From the NCBI RefSeq assembly GCF_030384885.1, contig NZ_CP128613.1: a stretch of DNA of 64,000 nt. The stretch is one strand, 5' to 3'. This document shows positions 9,129 to 22,499 of this stretch, in pieces. This DNA is from Escherichia coli. Lineage in GTDB: Bacteria > Pseudomonadota > Gammaproteobacteria > Enterobacterales > Enterobacteriaceae. The position numbers were made by a program, and so were the translations under genes. How positions within the stretch are numbered: position 1 is the stretch's first letter; every line of letters starts with the position of its first letter. A model generated the notes under the pieces. The model saw only the letters and a list, made by a program, of their open reading frames with translations, was not told the DNA's origin and searched no databases.

Positions 9129-12100
9129 TTAAAGCTGACGTTGATCCAGACTGCTATATATTGCCTTTATTTCATTTTTTACGCTTTCGCCACGGTACAC
9201 CAAAGACGTATCGTATCGTTGATACTTATCTTCCCGTGCAGCACTGAACCAGTTAAAAGATCCGACACACAGCAGTTCTTCATCCTCAATTACAATTTTG
9301 CTGTGGACACGATTAACCAATTTCGTAGCGATACCCATCTTATTGAGCTTTTCAACAGCATCATTCAGCAGATGTTTTTTCTCCTGACGCTTATCATCAT
9401 CGACATGCGCTATATTGCAGTTTTTATCCGTCACCACAGTAATATCAATGCCCCGGGAACGGGCCAAAGCCATTGATGCCAGAAATCCCGTTTGCTCCAT
9501 TTTTTGCCAGGATAACCAAGGGGAAATAATCGTTATTTTCTTTTGAGCTCCGGCAAGAGTCTTGTTCAAAAATTCATCATGCGGCTCCACGCCATGCAGC
9601 GTTGAAATTTGTGTATGTGCGGAAATTAAATCCTGTCGTTTATGAAACTCAAATTGCAACGCATTATTATCTGAAGAAAAGAGATATTTTGCCAATAACC
9701 CTCGCGGCGAAAATGCGGGCTGCATCTCGATAAGGTCCATATCGCCAAATACCAGAAAACTATCTTTAGCGCGTGAGACAGCAACATTGAGGATACTGCT
9801 GTTGCTATCAAGAAACCTGCCATCTTCATGTTTTGAGTAGACTGGAGAAAAGAGAACAATCGCCCTTTCCGCCCCCTGCAAGGAGTGCACAGTCCCCACT
9901 GTCAGTGAACCCTCCTCGTCTTTGCCATTAATTTCCAGCTTACGCAATGACGTTTTGATAGCATTAACCTGCGCCGAAAATGGCGTCACAACACCAACAA
10001 CTTTGTACAGTGGTTCCCCGTAATGGCGCTCTATATCATCCTTATGTGCCACCAGCCATGCTGCTATTGTTTCAGCTTCAAGAGGGTTATAACGGCTCCC
10101 CCCATTTGGCTTCATGCCTCTACCATCAATATGTAAATATCCCATTGCGGGGAAAATCGTCCCTTTTTCTATCCCTCTTTTAGGCTGCAACTTACCGTGA
10201 TAGCAAAGTGAGTTACAGTAGCCGATGATGTTATTGAAACAGCGACGATGCTCATACAGATACATTCCGCGCTCGAACTTGGGATCATACTGGTAGTGAG
10301 AGTTAAACTGGGCTACCTGCATTACGCTGCCAGATGCTGCACTTTTTCCAGACCCACACACGTGAGTATATGTATTTATTAACTCTTCCTGAGTGCCACC
10401 AGAAATAATATTCTCCTCAAGCATATTGCCCATATCAGTGACGGGTAGACAATTCCAGATTGGAGCTATTTGCTCCGTATCGCCAATCACCAGCGCTTTC
10501 TTCGCCAATGCAAAGGAAGCTGCAGCAACCTCCGGGAGTACCTGCCCGGCTTCATCGACAATCAGTAAATCAGCAAAGTTATATAAATAATTATTATCCG
10601 ATGTTCTATCGCCACCAAAAGATTTTCTTCTGTTCATATGGTAAGGCAACATGTAGCAGGTCATCACCACACAAGGAGTAAGTTTCATTCTTCTTAGCCA
10701 ACGAGCCTCGGCGATAGTTATCCCGGTAATTCCTTTTTCTTTTTGCAAATTATCTATAGCTGCCATATCAATCAGCCAACGCCCCTCCCAATAATGGGTC
10801 GCTACCAAGAACGCTGGAAAACGAATCTGAGTATCGGCAAGTTCATCCGCTCCTGAAAGATTCAATTCATCGTCACCTCTGTAACCCAAAGCATAAGTCA
10901 ACTCACGCCATTGTTTTGCAGCTTCTATTTCGCGTCGGGCTATATCCTTCGCATAGTTGATGTTCTGTTGGCACTCATCCTGCTCCTTTTGCGTTTTAGC
11001 AATCAAACTATCAATAAATTCATCAATATCTTCGGGATAATTTCCCTGGAACGATGTCATTCTTGTGCCAAACGTAGAGTCCAGGAAGAGGTTAATCTGG
11101 TAATGGCGTTTAGTACGAACAGCAGGAAGCCATGACAAAACCGCATACACTAGCGACTCATCAGCACGGTATTGCTGCCACTGCTTTTTACCTCTGGTTA
11201 AAAGTGAAATTTCATTGCCAATATTGAGAAGACGTGTATTTTCGTCCTGAAGATACTGGTCGAGATTCTCACTGATGGCTCGCTGTTCATGGCGGATATC
11301 ATTAAGCCTGCGCCATGCGGGTTCGATTTGCTGAAGTTGAATAAACTGTGAAGTTAAACGTTCATGCAAAAGCGTCACTACATGCTCTGGTGAATTGCAC
11401 TCTCCAGCTCCAAACGCCACCTCCGCTTTTTCAAGGTAAAATGCCCGGGCTTTTTCCAGATATTCCTGGGATTCAACGTGGTTAAAAAAATCTTCAGTCT
11501 GGTATTTCTTCGCAGCCTCAACCTGACGGCTTTTAGACGGAAAATAAGCGCCATAGCTTATTACCTCCGGCAACCAACGACCAGCCATTACGCCAAAACC
11601 AGTAGAGAAATCTTTTCCAAAGGCTTCAATAATATTGGTGACGGCCTGATTGTTAGTTGATGTGGCAATAATTACAGGAGGTTCAGCTTGATTAAGTGCG
11701 GCTCTAGTCCATTCGGTGGCGATAATAGAAAGCACCAGCGTAGTTTTACCCGTTCCCGGAGGACCGTTAACAGCGAGCATATCCCCCTGCTGTTGAGTCA
11801 GATAATGGCTCAGGGCATCGCGCTGCGCCACTGCCAGCGGAAACTTATCGCCGGAATGCCCCAGACGTTCGCAGAACATAGCATTCTTAGCGAGAAGTGG
11901 CTCTAGTGGAACCATTTCATTTGAGGCAAAACGCGTTAATAGAGGAACCTTAACCTGGCTCATCAGCAGATGGTCATACAAAGGCAGGATATGAACACTG
12001 GCCCCTACATGCTGGCTAGCTTTAACAATATAACCGTATCCAGCCCGTTCGTATGGCTCAGATGTAGCGACCCAATTTCCAGCGACGTTTCTTAAAAGGT

Positions 12101-12644
12101 TATCTGACTGTTGAAGATAATTTTGCCAATGCTGACGATACCTGGCATGGCGTTCCGCTTTCTCTTCGTCAGTTTCTTCGTAATGTTCTGGTTGACCTTC
12201 ATTAATGGTGGCTGTGTTATGCGTAGTTTTGTATTTGTCATATTGCACCAACTCACCAATAGAAAAATGACCGGAAGGGAGAGGTTCAAGCAGATCGCGG
12301 GGAATAGTGGCTGAAGCGGCAGGAAACAAAAAACCTTCCCTATTAAGAAGAGCGGAGGTAACCAGTGGCGTAATAATTGCGGGTGCACCTGCCGTTTGCT
12401 CTTTGCCATGCTTTACAATGCGGTTCCATACCTGGGGCCGTAACACGACTTCAACGTTTTTTACAGACTCCCCTTCACCGTCAAAAAATGCCCGAATAGT
12501 TTCGTCATCCAACTGCCCTGCGCTGATATTTATCCACCGAATGAATGATTCTGTATCTTTACGTGAAAACGTTCCTTTGCCAGATTCGGCGTCAGCTAAG
12601 GAGTTGCGCCAGTATGAAGTGAATCCCAATGTATTGCTGTCCAT
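9129..12644 (-). CDS. Large helicase-nuclease fusion: N-terminal unknown region, SF1 Upf1/DNA2-like helicase, C-terminal PLD (HKD) nuclease; type II Mokosh-like defence candidate
   Basis: 1171-aa ORF, ATG at 12644. Walker [13 protein letters not shown], Walker [10 protein letters not shown], helicase motif [18 protein letters not shown]-terminal HKD motif [19 protein letters not shown]. Confidence 0.85.
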
Positions 12645-12837
12645 TTCTCATTCCGTGACATAATAGAAATCATTGATTTCATTGATGTAAATATTACTTA
12701 TGATTAAACATTGTCCACGATGCGAGCGCGATCGCAATAAATATTGTGCCTGGAGGATGGATTAGATTTTCTGAAAGAGCTAAATCCTTAATAGATAAAC
12801 GCGTACATACTTGGTTCGGTATTCTTAAGGGATTTAA

Positions 12838-12961
12838 TATGGATTGAACCAGGTTGACGTTAGTTGAAAAAAACAGTGGAAAAGATTTGTGTGGCGCGGA
12901 TTTCAGGCATAAAAAAAGACCTCAGTTGAGGTCTATTTACATACTTTTGGTGCGAAGGCCG
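12838..12961. repeat. Direct repeat copy 1 (island-distal att-like site): leuX 3' flank plus 14 nt of tRNA 3' end
   Basis: 12894-12953 is a 60-bp perfect copy of 22361-22420; about 55 bp upstream shows roughly 85 percent similarity; ends in TGGTGCGAAGGCCG, matching the leuX 3' end with a 1-nt deletion. Confidence 0.8.
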
Positions 12962-13077
12962 CACCGCGATTCCAGACTCAACAATATGAAATCAATGGAC
13001 TTTTAAAAATGCGAAGTTACTTTGTATACTCACATGTATACTCAGTACCATTTCTTAAGAAATCAATTCATTCAATA

Positions 13078-13875
13078 CTACTCATCATCGTCTTCCACTG
13101 GTTCCAGCACATCAAGCGCAACTCTCACCATAGCGATAGAACCAATACGAATGAAAGCATCTTCTCCATCTTCGTCGGTTATCATAAAACGAACCGTGGT
13201 TTCAGGCTCGCAATCCAGCGCGTCAAAAAAAGCATTCAACTGGCCGATATCATCCGTCTCTTCGTTTTGCGGCGCATCTGGCTCAACACTCAGTGGAATC
13301 ACTGGTCCGCCGTTTACCAGCGTGATATGGACATTAAAATAATCGTCTTCGTAGGCATCATCCTCTTCGTCAACGATTGGCCGCAGACCATCAGAAAGGA
13401 ACTGATGAAATACCACTTCACGCATATTTAACGCATAACGATACTCGGAAGAATCAAAAACGAAGAAGCGTTCTATGTTTGGAGTGTTTTTTTCCTGAAA
13501 ATAATAATAAAACCTCCGCTTATCCACTGCTGAAATGGGCAACAGCAAATAGTCCCGCTGCCCCTGTAGCCAAAGTTTTACGGTCCAGAGACCGCTATCC
13601 ATTTCAATGCCGCTTGTGGCTATAGCCTCAAGATCTTCATCAGTTTTACGACGCTTTTTGCGGAAGTCATTTATCAACCGATCGCTTTCCGGGAACACTA
13701 CGTTTAGAGGCTTATCCAGAGCATTACATATTGCCTGTGCGAGCCCCAGCTTTGCAGCAACCTTCCCGGTTTCGATACGCTGAATTTGTTGCTGGCTGGT
13801 GCCGACCATAAACGCCAGCTCGCGCTGGGTGATAGATAGCTGGGTACGGAGCTGTTTGATGTTGTTCTGTAACAT
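13078..13875 (-). CDS. XRE-family HTH domain fused to an acidic C-terminal domain of unknown function
   Basis: N-terminal helix-turn-helix LSITQRELAFMVGTSQQQIQRIETGK; about 200-aa C-terminal region ending VEDDDE; preferred start ATG 13875 with GAAGGA RBS (alternative 13884). Confidence 0.7.
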   Translation of the reverse strand: MLQNNIKQLRTQLSITQRELAFMVGTSQQQIQRIETGKVAAKLGLAQAICNALDKPLNVVFPESDRLINDFRKKRRKTDEDLEAIATSGIEMDSGLWTVKLWLQGQRDYLLLPISAVDKRRFYYYFQEKNTPNIERFFVFDSSEYRYALNMREVVFHQFLSDGLRPIVDEEDDAYEDDYFNVHITLVNGGPVIPLSVEPDAPQNEETDDIGQLNAFFDALDCEPETTVRFMITDEDGEDAFIRIGSIAMVRVALDVLEPVEDDDE

Positions 13876-13989
13876 GGCATCCATCCTTCAGAAGGAGTAG
13901 AAAGTGCCATTAAAACACAAAATTGAGTATAAACACATAATCGTGTTTATACTCACTAATCAACACCCTTGAACGAAAAGAAAATCTCT

Positions 13990-14265
13990 TCATCGTTCTT
14001 CTCTAGTATGCCAGAGATCGACTATATAAATGTCATTGTCACGAAGTTCGTAGTGAACCTCATGGTCATCAAATAACACTTTTCGGACTTCCCGAGGTTC
14101 ATACCGAGTCTGCTGTACGCCAATTGCCGGATGTGCTGTAAGACCAGCACAACCAGTAATCAGGCGATCCAAAACGTCATCGGCGTGCTGGCGGCTATAC
14201 TGAAGGGCGAAACGGTAGATACGCTCAAGGTCATCCTGAGCTTTAAGCGTCCAGTAAATTTCCAT
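13990..14265 (-). CDS. ParE/RelE-superfamily toxin
   Basis: 91 aa, C-terminal IYIVDLWHTREER typical of ParE; starts 3 nt after the upstream RHH gene stop. Confidence 0.75.
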   Translation of the reverse strand: MEIYWTLKAQDDLERIYRFALQYSRQHADDVLDRLITGCAGLTAHPAIGVQQTRYEPREVRKVLFDDHEVHYELRDNDIYIVDLWHTREER

Positions 14266-14268
14266 TAA

Positions 14269-14517
14269 TCAGGATTTCTTTAAGCGATTAGCAAAATCCA
14301 CCATGTCCGAGTGGCTCACCACGCGACCGGCATCCACATCCGCAAGACCGGCCTGGATGCTCTGGTGACGCCGTTCTCTTTCGGCCAGCATACTGGTCAA
14401 CGCTTCCTTAATAATCCAGCTCTTAGAACGATCTAACTCAATTGCCAGATTCTCAACAGCAGCGGCCAATTCAATAGGTATCTGTGCGCTGATGGTTTGT
14501 TTAGTAAGCGAACCCAT
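14269..14517 (-). CDS. Ribbon-helix-helix (ParD/CopG-like) antitoxin
   Basis: Small ORF directly upstream of the ParE-like gene; RHH-like N-terminus; start at 14517 (GAGGT RBS) preferred over the ORF-track start 14541. Confidence 0.65.
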   Translation of the reverse strand: MGSLTKQTISAQIPIELAAAVENLAIELDRSKSWIIKEALTSMLAERERRHQSIQAGLADVDAGRVVSHSDMVDFANRLKKS

Positions 14518-14592
14518 AGGGATTACCTCGTTTAATAACATTTAATAACTCCTATTAATATTAGCATAAAGGTGCTTATAAAAACATCAATC

Positions 14593-16360: not shown

Positions 16361-16909
16361 GTCTGTCGGCCCGACTGGGTTCCCTATGAGGTTGTCACGC
16401 ACACCACAGAATTCCTGCGCGAAGGCATCAAACGGGAGAAATTAAGCGACGCACAAATCCGCGAACTGGAAGAACAAGGCATAGATCCCAATACGCTGGA
16501 GTTTGATGGTAAGGCGCTGGATGAGGCGATCTACAACAAAGACACCAACCGCTATATCCTGCGTAACCTGATGGAAAATGGCCTGAAAGATCGGGACGGC
16601 CAGTTGCCTGGTAAAACCATCATTTTCGCCCGTAACCACAAACACGCGCTGCTGTTGAATGAATTGTTCGACGATATGTACCCGGAAGGGATTGATGCTG
16701 GCGTTGATTTTAAAGATCGCACGCAGGCGGCGTTTGTTGTACCAAAAGAAGATATTGCTGCGCAGAAATACGACCTCTCTATTAATCGTTATAAAGAAGT
16801 GGTGTATCAGGCTGAGGAGTATGAAGATCCGAAAGTGATACTGAAGCGGTTAAAAGATCTGGAAAATGAGATTCTGGCGGATCTGAATGAGCTGGAGGGA
16901 ATGCTGTGA
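16361..16909 (+). pseudogene. 5'-truncated remnant of the R-M gene that precedes hsdS (hsdM-like C-terminus)
   Basis: In-frame coding sequence from 16361 with no start until ATG 16571; C-terminal KYDLSINRYKE motif; stop overlaps hsdS start (GTGA at 16906-16909). Confidence 0.5.
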
Positions 16910-19854: not shown

Positions 19855-20730
19855 TCAATGCTCTCCTCTGAACACCTCTTTTCTGTGCCATTCCACAAAC
19901 CGCTCGCCAGGATAATTTTCTTTAACCGGTGGCAACGCAATCGCCTTTCCTGCAAAATCCCAGAACAGCCGCTGTACCACCCCACCGCCATTTACCGCGC
20001 CGGAAACCACCACACGCATATTTTCATCCAAACCAATCGAACCACGATCAAACGCTTTATGATGGATGGCGCACAATGCCAGGCCATTAGGTACTTCACA
20101 AGGGCCATGGTGCTGCTTCCATCTGATATGAGCGGCTTCCAGAGCAATCGGCGCATTGTCGTGGCGCATGTTAAAGCCGCAGATAGCGCACTGATAATTG
20201 TAAGCACGTAGCACCATCTGACGGAACTACGGATCGCGTTGACGGAGAGAGGTGCGAATATCAAAACCCATCTCGTCAGCTATCTCTTCCTGAATACTGG
20301 CCGGGAAATGCGCCTCCAGGAGCTGCTGCGCCAGCGTATCAATTAACCTGTGATTTTTTGCCACCAAAGCAAAATTATCGGCATCAAATCCACCAGCAAC
20401 ATTATATTCAATGAGTTCACGTCGGGGCGGCTGGCGGCTACCACTGGTTGAGCACAGTTCCGCGTTATGTAGTTCCCAGAAGCCATCGCCCTTCAGACGC
20501 CAGAACGGCATGTCCGGGCGCTGGTCACGGCGCTGCGGTCCATAACGTTCCAGTAGATCCAACAGGGGCTCGTAGATTTCAGAACCATAGTTAAACAGGC
20601 GACCATGACCCTGCCGATAGTGTGAGAGAACGTACAGCAGCAATAATGGCTTATGTGGCGCACGTTGTTCGCCTTTGCGCCAGATGGTGATATTTGATAT
20701 CGCTTGTTTTAGGGTTTTGTCAGAGGTCAT
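19855..20730 (-). pseudogene. HNH endonuclease-family gene with unknown N-terminal domain, interrupted by one in-frame amber (TAG) codon
   Basis: ORFs 20227-20775 and 19855-20217 are in the same frame, separated only by TAG at 20229-20227 plus 3 sense codons; C-terminal part has HNH motifs CAICGF...EAAHIRWKQHHGP...NGLALCAIHHKAFD. Confidence 0.7.
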
Positions 20731-20861
20731 TGCGTTGGAGAATCCATGAGCACATATTTGCGATGATGCTCGCAACTATATGTACATTCAAGGCATTATT
20801 GCAGACATCCTTTTTCTCTGGCGGTTCTGTACCTGGCAGATAGAATTCTGATAACAACGGT

Positions 20862-22214: not shown

Positions 22215-22304
22215 AATGGTCTTCCTTCCATTGGTATCTCGTGAGTATACAAGCAATATCGAATCGGCAAATATACTCATTAGTATACTCACAAGCCTGT
22301 TGAT

Positions 22305-22420
22305 GTGGGTTGAGTCAGGTTGACTTCAGTTGAGGGGAAAAGCTGGAAAAGCCTTGTGTAGCGCGGATTTCAGGCATAAAAAAAGACCTCAGTTGAGGTC
22401 TATTTACATACTTTTGGTGC
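22305..22420. repeat. Direct repeat copy 2 (integrase-proximal), covering the leuX terminator hairpin and tRNA 3' end
   Basis: 22361-22420 identical to 12894-12953; contains GACCTCAGTTGAGGTC hairpin plus T-run on the minus strand (leuX terminator). Confidence 0.8.
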
Positions 22421-22499
22421 CGAAGGCCGGACTCGAACCGGCACGTATTTCTACGGTTGATTTTGAATCAACTGCGTCTACCGATTTCGCCACTTCGGC
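22415..22499 (-). tRNA. leuX: tRNA-Leu (CAA anticodon), leuX
   Basis: Reverse complement reads GCCGAAGTGGCGAAATCGGTAGACGCAGTTGATTCAAAATCAACCGTAGAAATACGTGCCGGTTCGAGTCCGGCCTTCGGCACCA, 85 nt with encoded CCA. Confidence 0.95.

What the first reader, a model, noticed from the sequence alone, without database searches (positions are those of the whole stretch)
13078..13875. XRE-HTH regulator fused to a large acidic domain at the island edge
The N-terminal 60 aa form a typical Cro/C1-type HTH, but the protein continues for about 200 aa with an unrecognised acidic C-terminal domain (ends VEDDDE). It is the first gene inside the island next to the distal att repeat and directly downstream of the ParE/RHH pair. 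HTH fusions at this position could act as a sensor-regulator or anti-defence factor; the acidic tail is reminiscent of DNA-mimic proteins.
Basis: inference. Interest (0 to 1): 0.55.

Follow-up and report, generated by a model that had tools for sequence, protein, structure and literature searches.

The report
Self-repressing island regulator, unknown acidic domain
The last gene of a small E. coli genomic island encodes a phage-434-like DNA-binding repressor that appears to switch off only its own promoter and carries a conserved, very acidic domain that no database recognises, so its real job is still unknown.

Summary
Window 13078-13875 (minus strand) is an intact 265-aa gene. Residues 9-61 match Pfam HTH_3. 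Residues 76-265 match nothing in Pfam, NCBIfam, PHROGs, PADLOC or PDB sequences. It is the last gene before the distal att repeat of a 9.5-kb leuX island.

New findings:
- The HTH aligns without gaps to 434 repressor, with Q28/Q29 kept and Q33 changed to R.
- Two tandem 14-bp operators of type ACAC-N6-GTGT lie over the gene's own promoter. They recur upstream of homologues from Enterobacterales to Sphingomonas, Bradyrhizobium and Edaphobacter: 26 exact sites in 6 kb of upstream sequence against 1 in 528 kb of flanks. No other site lies in the island. The protein is therefore very probably an autorepressor.
- The C-terminal part is modelled confidently as two beta-beta-alpha-beta-beta-beta units. 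Its net charge is about -28 across the family, and it is under purifying selection.
- At sequence level it was found only behind this HTH, apart from short or truncated entries.
- No partner gene is conserved. RHH-ParE is present in only some loci.
- There are no plasmid or phage copies, and 71 of 5426 E. coli genomes carry the gene.

Verdict: a CI-like autorepressor with an undescribed acidic domain. The sensor, decoy and DNA-mimic ideas remain untested.

The parts
13078..13875 (-). Coding sequence of the 265-aa HTH plus acidic-domain protein (stop codon 13078-13080)
   Evidence: RefSeq CDS at the same coordinates; dN/dS 0.07-0.14
13690..13875 (-). Residues 1-62: 434-repressor-like Cro/CI HTH domain; recognition helix TSQQQIQRIE is invariant in the family
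   Evidence: Pfam HTH_3 E = 3.8e-13; gap-free alignment to 434 repressor residues 3-44; invariant columns; five helices in the AF2 model
13612..13689 (-). Residues 63-88: basic linker (KKRRK) with two helices joining the HTH to the C-terminal domain
   Evidence: AF2 helices H64-73 and H79-86, pLDDT 87-90
13390..13611 (-). Residues 89-162: first beta-beta-alpha-beta-beta-beta unit, with invariant G89, E91, D93, F137, F140, A148, N150, F159 and L160
   Evidence: AF2 models; alignment A1
13336..13389 (-). Residues 163-180: disordered acidic loop (DEEDDAYEDDY)
   Evidence: pLDDT below 50 for residues 167-177; net charge -8
13081..13335 (-). Residues 181-265: second beta-beta-alpha-beta-beta-beta unit (invariant R229, D234, G237, F241, R243) plus acidic tail VEDDDE; net charge -19
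13933..13946 (.). Operator O1, ACACGATTATGTGT on the gene's strand: a perfect ACAC-N6-GTGT site inside a 13-nt perfect inverted repeat (13924-13955), 71 nt upstream of the ATG and over the presumed -35
13915..13928 (.). Operator O2, ACTCAATTTTGTGT on the gene's strand (one mismatch), 18 nt downstream of O1 and overlapping the extended -10
   Evidence: second site 18-19 bp from the first in most loci
13909..13919 (-). Presumed extended -10 promoter element TGTGTTTTAAT, nearly invariant in the enterobacterial loci
   Evidence: read; inference, because the consensus scan did not call it
13885..13889 (-). Ribosome-binding site AAGGA, 9 nt before the ATG at 13875
   Evidence: read
13024..13044 (.). 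Two direct GTATACTCA repeats between the stop codon and the att core. Probable integrase arm-type or RDF sites of the island, not sites for this protein
   Evidence: conserved whatever the operator flanks
12877..12966 (.). Distal att region: the direct repeat shared with the leuX end (12877-12953), running on into a degenerate tRNA 3' end copy TGGTGCGAAGGCCGCACCG (12948-12966). This is the island boundary

Best explanation
What it is. The gene encodes a CI/434-type repressor that regulates itself. It rides as an optional, self-contained one-gene cargo module at the attR end of CP4-like integrative islands.

Step 1, well supported by comparison but not shown by experiment. The N-terminal HTH reads 14-bp sites of the type ACAC-N6-GTGT in the manner of 434 repressor. 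Gln28 and Gln29 are kept, and residue 33 is Arg instead of Gln. This fits the change of operator position 4 from A (434: ACAA) to C, whose paired G an Arg can contact.

Step 2, inferred. Two such sites, O1 and O2, lie 18-19 bp apart over the -35 and the extended -10 of the gene's own promoter. Bound protein would therefore shut off its own synthesis and hold its level constant.

Step 3, inferred. The C-terminal domain is a tandem of two beta-beta-alpha-beta-beta-beta units with net charge about -28. I take it to supply the dimer contact, and probably the dimer-dimer contact, that a palindromic pair of operators needs. I also take it to be the part that meets a signal or a partner protein, as the C-terminal domains of phage repressors do.

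Step 4, speculative. No other operator exists in the island, so the useful output must come from this acidic domain or from targets elsewhere, such as the host chromosome or incoming DNA. The MGE and defence-island neighbourhoods suggest a role in conflicts between mobile elements.
For: - HTH_3 at residues 9-61. The best PDB sequence hit is 434 repressor, residues 3-44 aligned to residues 3-44 without gaps.
- The recognition helix is invariant across 43 homologues down to 33% identity.
- Exact ACAC-N6-GTGT occurs 26 times in the 210-nt promoter windows of 29 loci (22 of them have at least one site) and once in 528 kb of flanks.
- Sites with at most one mismatch occur at 11.7 per kb upstream against 0.16 per kb in flanks. 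Spacing between successive sites is mostly 18-19 bp.
- The sites are present in Rhodanobacter, Sphingomonas, Bradyrhizobium, Roseococcus, Edaphobacter and an uncultured genome.
- The 64-kb window holds one exact site, and the full 21-kb island of strain 2013C-4282 holds no other meaningful one.
- The full-length AF2 model has pLDDT 86 and pTM 0.82. The C-terminal model has pLDDT 84 and shows two beta-beta-alpha-beta-beta-beta units.
- The C-terminal domain was found only behind this HTH, apart from short or truncated entries: 587 clusters at 50% identity, most of them 260-300 aa.
- Both parts are under purifying selection, and the acidity is conserved.
- No partner gene is conserved.
- The gene is in 71 of 5426 complete E. 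coli genomes, single copy and chromosomal.
Against: - No binding or expression experiment exists.
- O1 could also act as a weak AT-rich terminator hairpin for the upstream parE transcript.
- The sigma-70 scan did not call the promoter.
- Oligomerisation through the C-terminal domain was not modelled, because no multimer tool was available.
- Several invariant charged residues (E91, D93, R120, R121, N150, R229, D234, E238, R243) look more like a binding or catalytic site than a plain dimer interface. The domain may therefore do more than I propose.
- A gene whose only visible target is itself leaves its benefit to the island unexplained.
Confidence: 0.6

Rival explanations
1. DNA-mimic or decoy protein. 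The acidic domain imitates DNA and binds a DNA-binding protein, such as a restriction enzyme, a repressor or a nucleoid protein of a host or an invader. Alternatively it masks the protein's own basic HTH. Autorepression would keep the dose constant and raise it when the protein is titrated away.
For: - Net charge is -29 on 190 aa and is conserved across the family, next to a basic HTH.
- A precedent exists in trans: the acidic DNA mimic DMP19 blocks the XRE factor NHTF (PMC3384305).
- Neighbourhoods include restriction, TIR, Mokosh and candidate defence genes.
Against: - Much of the charge sits in disordered loops and the tail rather than on a rigid surface.
- The gene is absent from phages and plasmids, where anti-defence genes usually travel, and BFVD holds no similar fold.
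- Charge alone is weak evidence.
Confidence: 0.15
2. One-gene phage-defence or exclusion module. The HTH keeps expression low, and the C-terminal domain senses an invader and acts as the effector, or binds invader DNA or protein.
For: - The gene stands alone as optional cargo in defence-rich island slots.
- It is rare and patchy: 1.3% of E. coli genomes.
- Invariant polar residues in the C-terminal domain hint at a specific binding site.
Against: - PADLOC matches only the HTH part.
- No enzymatic, pore-forming or nuclease signature was found.
- No phenotype data exist.
Confidence: 0.12
3. Island maintenance regulator, meaning an immunity repressor or an excision control factor for the CP4-like element. 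Its position next to attR, and next to the integrase gene in the circular form, would be what matters.
For: - It is always the last gene before the att core in 20 enterobacterial species and in E. coli strains with different neighbours.
- In the excised circle it would lie upstream of the integrase gene on the same strand (geometry).
- In Rhodanobacter it lies divergent to a P4-type integrase gene.
Against: - No ACAC-N6-GTGT site lies at the integrase promoter, the att ends or anywhere else in the island.
- The GTATACTCA repeats at both ends stay the same while the operator flanks differ, so they belong to the integrase or RDF and not to this protein.
- The gene is in only 71 E. coli genomes, and all 71 are hit over at least 80% of the gene. 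By contrast, some part of a 1951-nt query spanning the gene and its flanks matches 2727 genomes, though I did not determine which part. This suggests most related islands do without the gene.
- A copy of the leuX terminator lies between it and the integrase gene in the circle.
Confidence: 0.1
4. Antitoxin-like component: a third member of the adjacent RHH-ParE module (as PaaR2 is for PaaA2-ParE2), or an orphan antitoxin that neutralises a toxin encoded elsewhere.
For: - It lies 115 nt downstream of parE on the same strand.
- The HTH part gives weak NCBIfam hits to antitoxin families: Y4mF/HipB-type at 38.6 bits and MqsA at 28 bits.
Against: - All those hits are far below the curated cut-offs and cover only the HTH.
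- RHH-ParE is missing from 13 of 20 enterobacterial species loci and from all distant ones.
- The gene has its own promoter and operators.
- No gene is conserved next to it.
Confidence: 0.05

Closest known systems
Phage 434 cI repressor (and lambda-type CI repressors in general)
   Same: - The N-terminal Cro/CI HTH aligns without gaps to 434 repressor residues 3-44, with Gln28 and Gln29 kept.
- The predicted operator has the 434 geometry: 4-bp half-sites, a 6-bp spacer and 14 bp overall. It shares 3 of the 4 half-site bases with ACAA-N6-TTGT (the 434 consensus is from my own knowledge).
- Tandem operators overlap the gene's own promoter.
- The layout is two-part: an HTH, a linker and a beta-rich C-terminal domain.
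   Different: - It is extremely acidic.
- No lytic genes, cro partner or additional operator sets are present.
- The gene is not found in any phage record.
DMP19-NHTF pair of Neisseria (acidic DNA mimic plus XRE-family factor)
   Same: An XRE-family HTH that binds a palindromic operator is combined with a strongly acidic polypeptide able to compete with DNA (PMC3384305). This is a possible functional analogy.
   Different: - DMP19 and NHTF are two separate proteins, and DMP19 is all-helical with its own fold.
- Here the two parts are one chain and the acidic part is alpha/beta.
- There is no sequence or fold relation, and mimicry is untested here.
Defence-island regulators with an HTH plus a sensor domain (BrxR/CapW WYL proteins, CapH)
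   Same: These are self-repressing HTH proteins that bind inverted repeats in their own promoters and sit in defence islands. PADLOC gives a weak CapH hit on the HTH part. The description of BrxR and CapW is from my own knowledge.
   Different: - There is no WYL or other known sensor domain.
- In most loci no downstream gene is available to control, because this is the last gene before att.
- Only in Bradyrhizobium does it precede a candidate system, PDC-M41.
Rv3208A / TB9.4 of M. tuberculosis (PDB 7rur)
   Different: It is a single 64-residue unit, its function is also unknown, and it has no HTH. The score is modest and no sequence relation was detected.

Membership tests
XRE / Cro-CI HTH family (Pfam HTH_3, PF01381) | Significant match to the HTH_3 profile | tested here: met
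   E = 3.8e-13, residues 9-61
XRE / Cro-CI HTH family (Pfam HTH_3, PF01381) | Five-helix bundle with the helix 2 - turn - helix 3 motif | tested here: met
   AF2 helices at 6-12, 17-24, 28-35, 43-53 and 57-60, pLDDT 88-95
XRE / Cro-CI HTH family (Pfam HTH_3, PF01381) | Binds a palindromic operator as a dimer | tested here: inconclusive
   A conserved ACAC-N6-GTGT palindrome lies upstream of the gene in 22 of 29 loci. Binding itself cannot be tested with these tools
LexA / CI-type repressors with an S24 autocleaving domain | C-terminal Peptidase_S24 domain with a Ser-Lys dyad and an Ala-Gly cleavage site | tested here: not met
   [not shown]
Type II antitoxins with an XRE HTH (HigA, HipB, MqsA, PezA, Xre-RES) | Score above the curated family cut-off | tested here: not met
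   The best score is 38.6 bits against a cut-off of 71.65 (TIGR03070), and only the HTH is covered
Type II antitoxins with an XRE HTH (HigA, HipB, MqsA, PezA, Xre-RES) | A cognate toxin gene conserved in the same operon | tested here: not met
   No neighbour is conserved outside Enterobacterales, and ParE is present in only a subset
DNA-mimic proteins (Ocr, ArdA, DMP19, p56, UGI) | Strong negative surface charge | tested here: met
   Net charge -29, pI 4.05; family median -28
DNA-mimic proteins (Ocr, ArdA, DMP19, p56, UGI) | Fold or charge pattern matching a known mimic or B-DNA | tested here: not met
   [not shown]
DNA-mimic proteins (Ocr, ArdA, DMP19, p56, UGI) | Competes with DNA for a DNA-binding protein | not testable with these tools
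   Needs a binding or restriction-alleviation assay
Known anti-phage defence proteins (PADLOC-DB 2.0) | Match of the non-HTH part to a defence protein model | tested here: not met
   All 9 hits cover only residues 3-86: HTH_VI, CapH and RmrA
XRE-cupin regulators | C-terminal cupin barrel | tested here: not met
   [not shown]
TB9.4 / Rv3208A-like small proteins | Structural match to the 64-residue unit | tested here: inconclusive
   [not shown]

The most novel reading that the evidence does not exclude
The protein is a self-dosing acidic decoy. A one-gene module makes a DNA-like domain tethered to its own 434-type repressor head. When a DNA-binding protein of an invader (or a host restriction or nucleoid protein) captures the acidic domain, the repressor leaves O1/O2 and more decoy is made. 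That would be a new kind of one-gene defence or anti-defence circuit. It would also explain why the operator and recognition helix stay identical across phyla while the gene has no other target.
Probability: 0.12. Interest if true: 0.7.

Novelty: new variant of a known kind. Interest (0 to 1): 0.42.

Why it matters
The gene defines a compact and testable family: 587 clusters at 50% identity, almost all with one fixed architecture. It pairs a textbook DNA-reading head (434 type, with a readable Q33R change matching the ACAA-to-ACAC operator change) with a domain that no database describes.

The operator prediction gives an immediate handle for EMSA, reporter fusions and specificity swaps.

The conserved extreme acidity, the invariant polar residues and the fixed position as last gene before attR in CP4-like islands all suggest a real function in mobile-element biology that is still unknown.

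If the acidic domain proves to be a decoy or sensor, it would add a new module to the toolkit of island-borne conflict systems. If it is only an oligomerisation domain, the finding is an ordinary, if neatly conserved, orphan autorepressor.

Tried and rejected
1. GTATACTCA repeats as sites for this protein. The motif clusters at the distal end, at the gene's promoter and at the integrase promoter: 23 matches against 7.8 expected. However, the end repeats TGAGTATACATGTGAGTATA are nearly invariant in loci whose operator flanks differ, and the shared operator core is ACAC-N6-GTGT. They are better read as integrase arm-type or RDF sites. Rejected.

2. A conserved partner gene. Genes of roughly 300 aa lie just downstream in three distant loci. 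Two are unrelated to each other: a three-Cys-motif partner protein (TcmP / PDC-M41A) and a protein with no family match. The third was not scanned against any family library, and none of the three clusters with another. Rejected.

3. Sequence proof of the internal duplication. BLAST of the two halves finds nothing. hhalign of the two half-profiles aligns only the first hairpins in register, with P = 0.014 and probability 3%. The duplication therefore rests on topology alone.

5. Sequence searches of the C-terminal part. Pfam on 30 members and a PDB profile search (best hit ribosomal protein S17, E = 0.36) gave nothing.

6. Plasmid and phage copies. None at E of 1e-5 or better.

7. Extra operators in the full island of 2013C-4282. 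Only two coding-region matches turned up, in fimD and in the helicase gene, at chance level.

8. Literature. Searches on DUF4942/XRE/island, Rv3208A, XRE plus DNA mimic, and 434 repressor contacts found no description of this family. Only the DMP19/NHTF analogy was useful.

Full report
**1. The observation**

The ORF is real. It runs 13078..13884 on the minus strand and would give 268 aa. The ATG at 13875 lies 9 nt after an AAGGA ribosome-binding site (read). It is also the start used by RefSeq for the identical gene WP_106907645.1 of E. coli 2013C-4282.

- Pfam finds HTH_3 at residues 9-61 (E = 3.8e-13) and nothing else.
- NCBIfam, PHROGs, PADLOC and a PDB sequence search match only the first 60-90 residues.
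- A profile of the C-terminal 190 residues from 30 homologues finds no Pfam family and no solved structure.
- The C-terminal part has net charge -29 (pI 4.05). The HTH part has +6 (pI 10.3).

**2. Where it sits**

The window matches E. coli 2013C-4282 at 99.9-100% identity, apart from two internal deletions in the island. tRNA-Leu(CAA) lies at 22415-22499 on the minus strand, followed by a P4-type integrase gene.

A 77-nt direct repeat (12877-12953 and 22344-22420, 96% identical) brackets 9.47 kb. With gaps it extends to about 130 nt at 87% identity.

The gene is the last one before the distal repeat. On the same strand the order is YeeU, CbtA, DUF4942, CopG-RHH, ParE, this gene, att. Outside the island comes yjhR, an intact 1171-aa protein that matches the Mokosh MkoC model end to end (1464 bits).

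**3. The family**

Full-length homologues run from 98% to about 33% identity. They occur in many Enterobacterales and in Rhodanobacter, Dechloromonas and uncultured bacteria, always with the same length and layout.

A profile of the C-terminal part alone was run against 1.84 billion representatives. It finds 587 clusters at E of 0.001 or better, most of them 260-300 aa with the domain starting near residue 75-90. In the word-indexed database every listed hit carries the HTH or is a shorter, apparently truncated entry. A minority of representatives of about 165-220 aa begin at or near the domain itself. I could not tell whether these are true stand-alone proteins or truncated gene calls.

The recognition helix TSQQQIQRIE is invariant. 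So are G89, E91, D93, F137, F140, A148, N150, F159, L160, R229, D234, G237, F241 and R243.

Acidity is a family trait: median net charge is -28 over 264 members, and 98% are at or below -15. Both parts are under purifying selection:

| Part | dN/dS against orthologues |
|---|---|
| Whole protein | 0.07-0.14 |
| HTH part | 0.01-0.07 |
| C-terminal part | 0.08-0.16 |

**4. Structure**

- With 43 sequences, AlphaFold2 gives a full-length model with pLDDT 86 and pTM 0.82.
- The C-terminal part alone gives pLDDT 84.
- It consists of two units with the same order of elements, beta-beta-alpha-beta-beta-beta. A disordered acidic loop (residues 167-177) joins them, and an acidic tail follows.
- The duplication is supported by topology only. 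hhalign of the two halves gives P = 0.014.
- Foldseek against AFDB50 finds 47 proteins at E of 0.001 or better. Many are 'HTH cro/C1-type' proteins of 260-390 aa from distant phyla, and some are stand-alone proteins of 150-190 aa. All are uncharacterised.
- BFVD, the library of viral models, has nothing.

**5. The operator (the main new result)**

A perfect 13-nt inverted repeat lies 45-80 nt upstream of the start: TGAGTATAAACAC-N6-GTGTTTATACTCA, at 13924-13955.

I compared the 160 nt upstream of the gene in 29 loci from other species. The shared core is ACAC-N6-GTGT.

| Measure | Promoter windows | Rest of the loci |
|---|---|---|
| Exact sites | 26 in 6.1 kb (22 of 29 loci have at least one) | 1 in 528 kb |
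| Sites with at most one mismatch | 11.7 per kb | 0.16 per kb |

Most loci have two sites 18-19 bp apart. In the window these are O1 at 13933-13946 (perfect) and O2 at 13915-13928 (one mismatch). Sites are present in Sphingomonas, Bradyrhizobium (three sites), Roseococcus, Rhodanobacter (two) and Edaphobacter.

O2 overlaps a nearly invariant TGTGTTTTAAT, which reads as an extended -10. O1 would then cover the -35. This promoter assignment is my inference, because the consensus scan did not call it.

The window has only this one exact site in 64 kb. The full 21-kb island of 2013C-4282 has no other site outside coding sequence. The protein therefore most probably represses its own promoter and nothing else nearby.

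**6. Reading of the DNA**

The best PDB sequence match is 434 repressor, residues 3-44 aligned to residues 3-44 without a gap. Gln28 and Gln29 are kept, and Gln33 is replaced by Arg.

From established work on 434 (my own knowledge, not checked here), the 434 operator is ACAA-N6-TTGT, and those three glutamines read positions 1-4. The operator predicted here has the same 14-bp geometry and differs only at position 4 (A to C, so G on the other strand). A Gln-to-Arg change is the kind expected to read that base. This agreement between protein and DNA supports the operator call.

**7. Neighbourhood**

In the 20 enterobacterial species loci retrieved, and in other E. coli strains, the gene is always the last one of the module DUF932, RadC, YeeU, CbtA, DUF4942, followed by the island end ...AATCGCGGTGCGGCCTTCGCACCA. 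After that come unrelated sequence or the integrase gene of a second island. RHH-ParE lies in front of it in only 7 of these 20 loci, and in the window.

Distant homologues stand alone next to recombinases and defence-type genes, with no shared partner. These neighbours include:

- a P4-type integrase, type III restriction genes and GmrSD in Rhodanobacter;
- a TIR protein in a Rickettsiales genome;
- a RES-domain-like gene pair in Edaphobacter (my reading of the sequences; no family search matched);
- a resolvase and the candidate system PDC-M41 in Bradyrhizobium.

The gene occurs in 71 of 5426 complete E. coli genomes. It is single copy and always chromosomal, and every hit covers at least 80% of the gene. 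No plasmid or phage record encodes it.

**8. What it most likely is**

It is a CI/434-type autorepressor with a new C-terminal domain, carried as optional one-gene cargo at the attR end of CP4-like islands.

- Well supported: DNA reading and autorepression.
- Inference: the acidic tandem domain provides the dimer and dimer-dimer contacts and receives a signal or partner.
- Unknown: its benefit to the island.

The rivals, with my probabilities, are:

- DNA mimic or decoy, 0.15;
- one-gene defence, 0.12;
- island maintenance, 0.10;
- antitoxin-like component, 0.05.

The evidence for and against each is given in the Rival explanations section.

**9. Comparison with the known, and verdict**

It is a member of the XRE/Cro-CI HTH family. 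It works like a phage repressor, but it is not a LexA/CI-type S24 protein, a known antitoxin, an XRE-cupin or any PADLOC defence protein. DMP19/NHTF of Neisseria shows that an acidic DNA mimic can control an XRE factor (PMC3384305), but that is an analogy only.

I rate it a new variant of a known kind. It is moderately interesting because it gives a clean, testable operator and a widespread domain with no description, but no phenotype or mechanism for that domain can be shown with these tools.

Noticed in passing
window 9129-12644 (minus strand): yjhR is intact here (1171 aa) and matches the PADLOC MkoC model of type II Mokosh end to end (1464 bits). It has a DNA2/NAM7-type helicase part and a C-terminal PLD-like part, and it lies just outside the island, across the att repeat.
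   Followed up: partly
window 12877-12953 and 22344-22420 (extended: 12834-12961 and 22300-22429): The island's direct repeat is unusually long. It covers only 6 nt of the tRNA-Leu 3' end (about 15 nt with a 1-nt gap) plus about 70 nt downstream, including the leuX terminator hairpin. Both ends of the island therefore carry a copy of the tRNA terminator.
   Followed up: partly
window 13024-13044 and 22238-22295: GTATACTCA repeats cluster near both island ends: two direct copies at the distal end, and an inverted pair plus extra copies just upstream of the integrase start near 22216. The distal pair is nearly invariant across 14 species loci. They are probably integrase arm-type or RDF sites.
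   Followed up: partly
window 16378-16684, against L001 23735-35861: Compared with E. coli 2013C-4282, the window's island lacks two blocks (8.9 kb and 2.9 kb). These carry RadC, DUF932, Gp2-like, AlpA-like, GTPase, WYL, most of the type I restriction helicase and most of hsdM. A 307-nt helicase fragment and an hsdM tail remain next to an intact hsdS, so the type I system here is probably dead.
   Followed up: partly
window 13990-14541 (minus strand): The CopG-RHH (14269-14541) and ParE/RelE (13990-14265) pair is intact. The AT-rich palindrome that I read as operator O1 of the HTH gene was also called as a terminator-like hairpin just after parE, so it may serve both roles.
   Followed up: no
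L002/L028 (Rhodanobacter sp. Root480), L002 7868-7898 and 8947-8977: The homologous gene is flanked on both sides by 31-nt repeats (74% identical) that look like tRNA 3' end fragments. It lies divergent to a P4-type integrase gene, as if it were a one-gene remnant between two att sites.
   Followed up: no
L029 (Rickettsiales MAG), about 2.1 kb upstream of the matched gene: Two paralogues of the family (265 and 283 aa) lie 1.3 kb apart in one locus, separated by an unannotated 304-aa gene, with a TIR-domain gene next to them.
   Followed up: no
window 19855-20775 (minus strand): Split ORFs here correspond to the 'phosphorothioated DNA-binding restriction endonuclease' pseudogene (internal stop) annotated next to the integrase gene in 2013C-4282. 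A second fragment of the same kind of gene lies beyond yjhR in that record.
   Followed up: no
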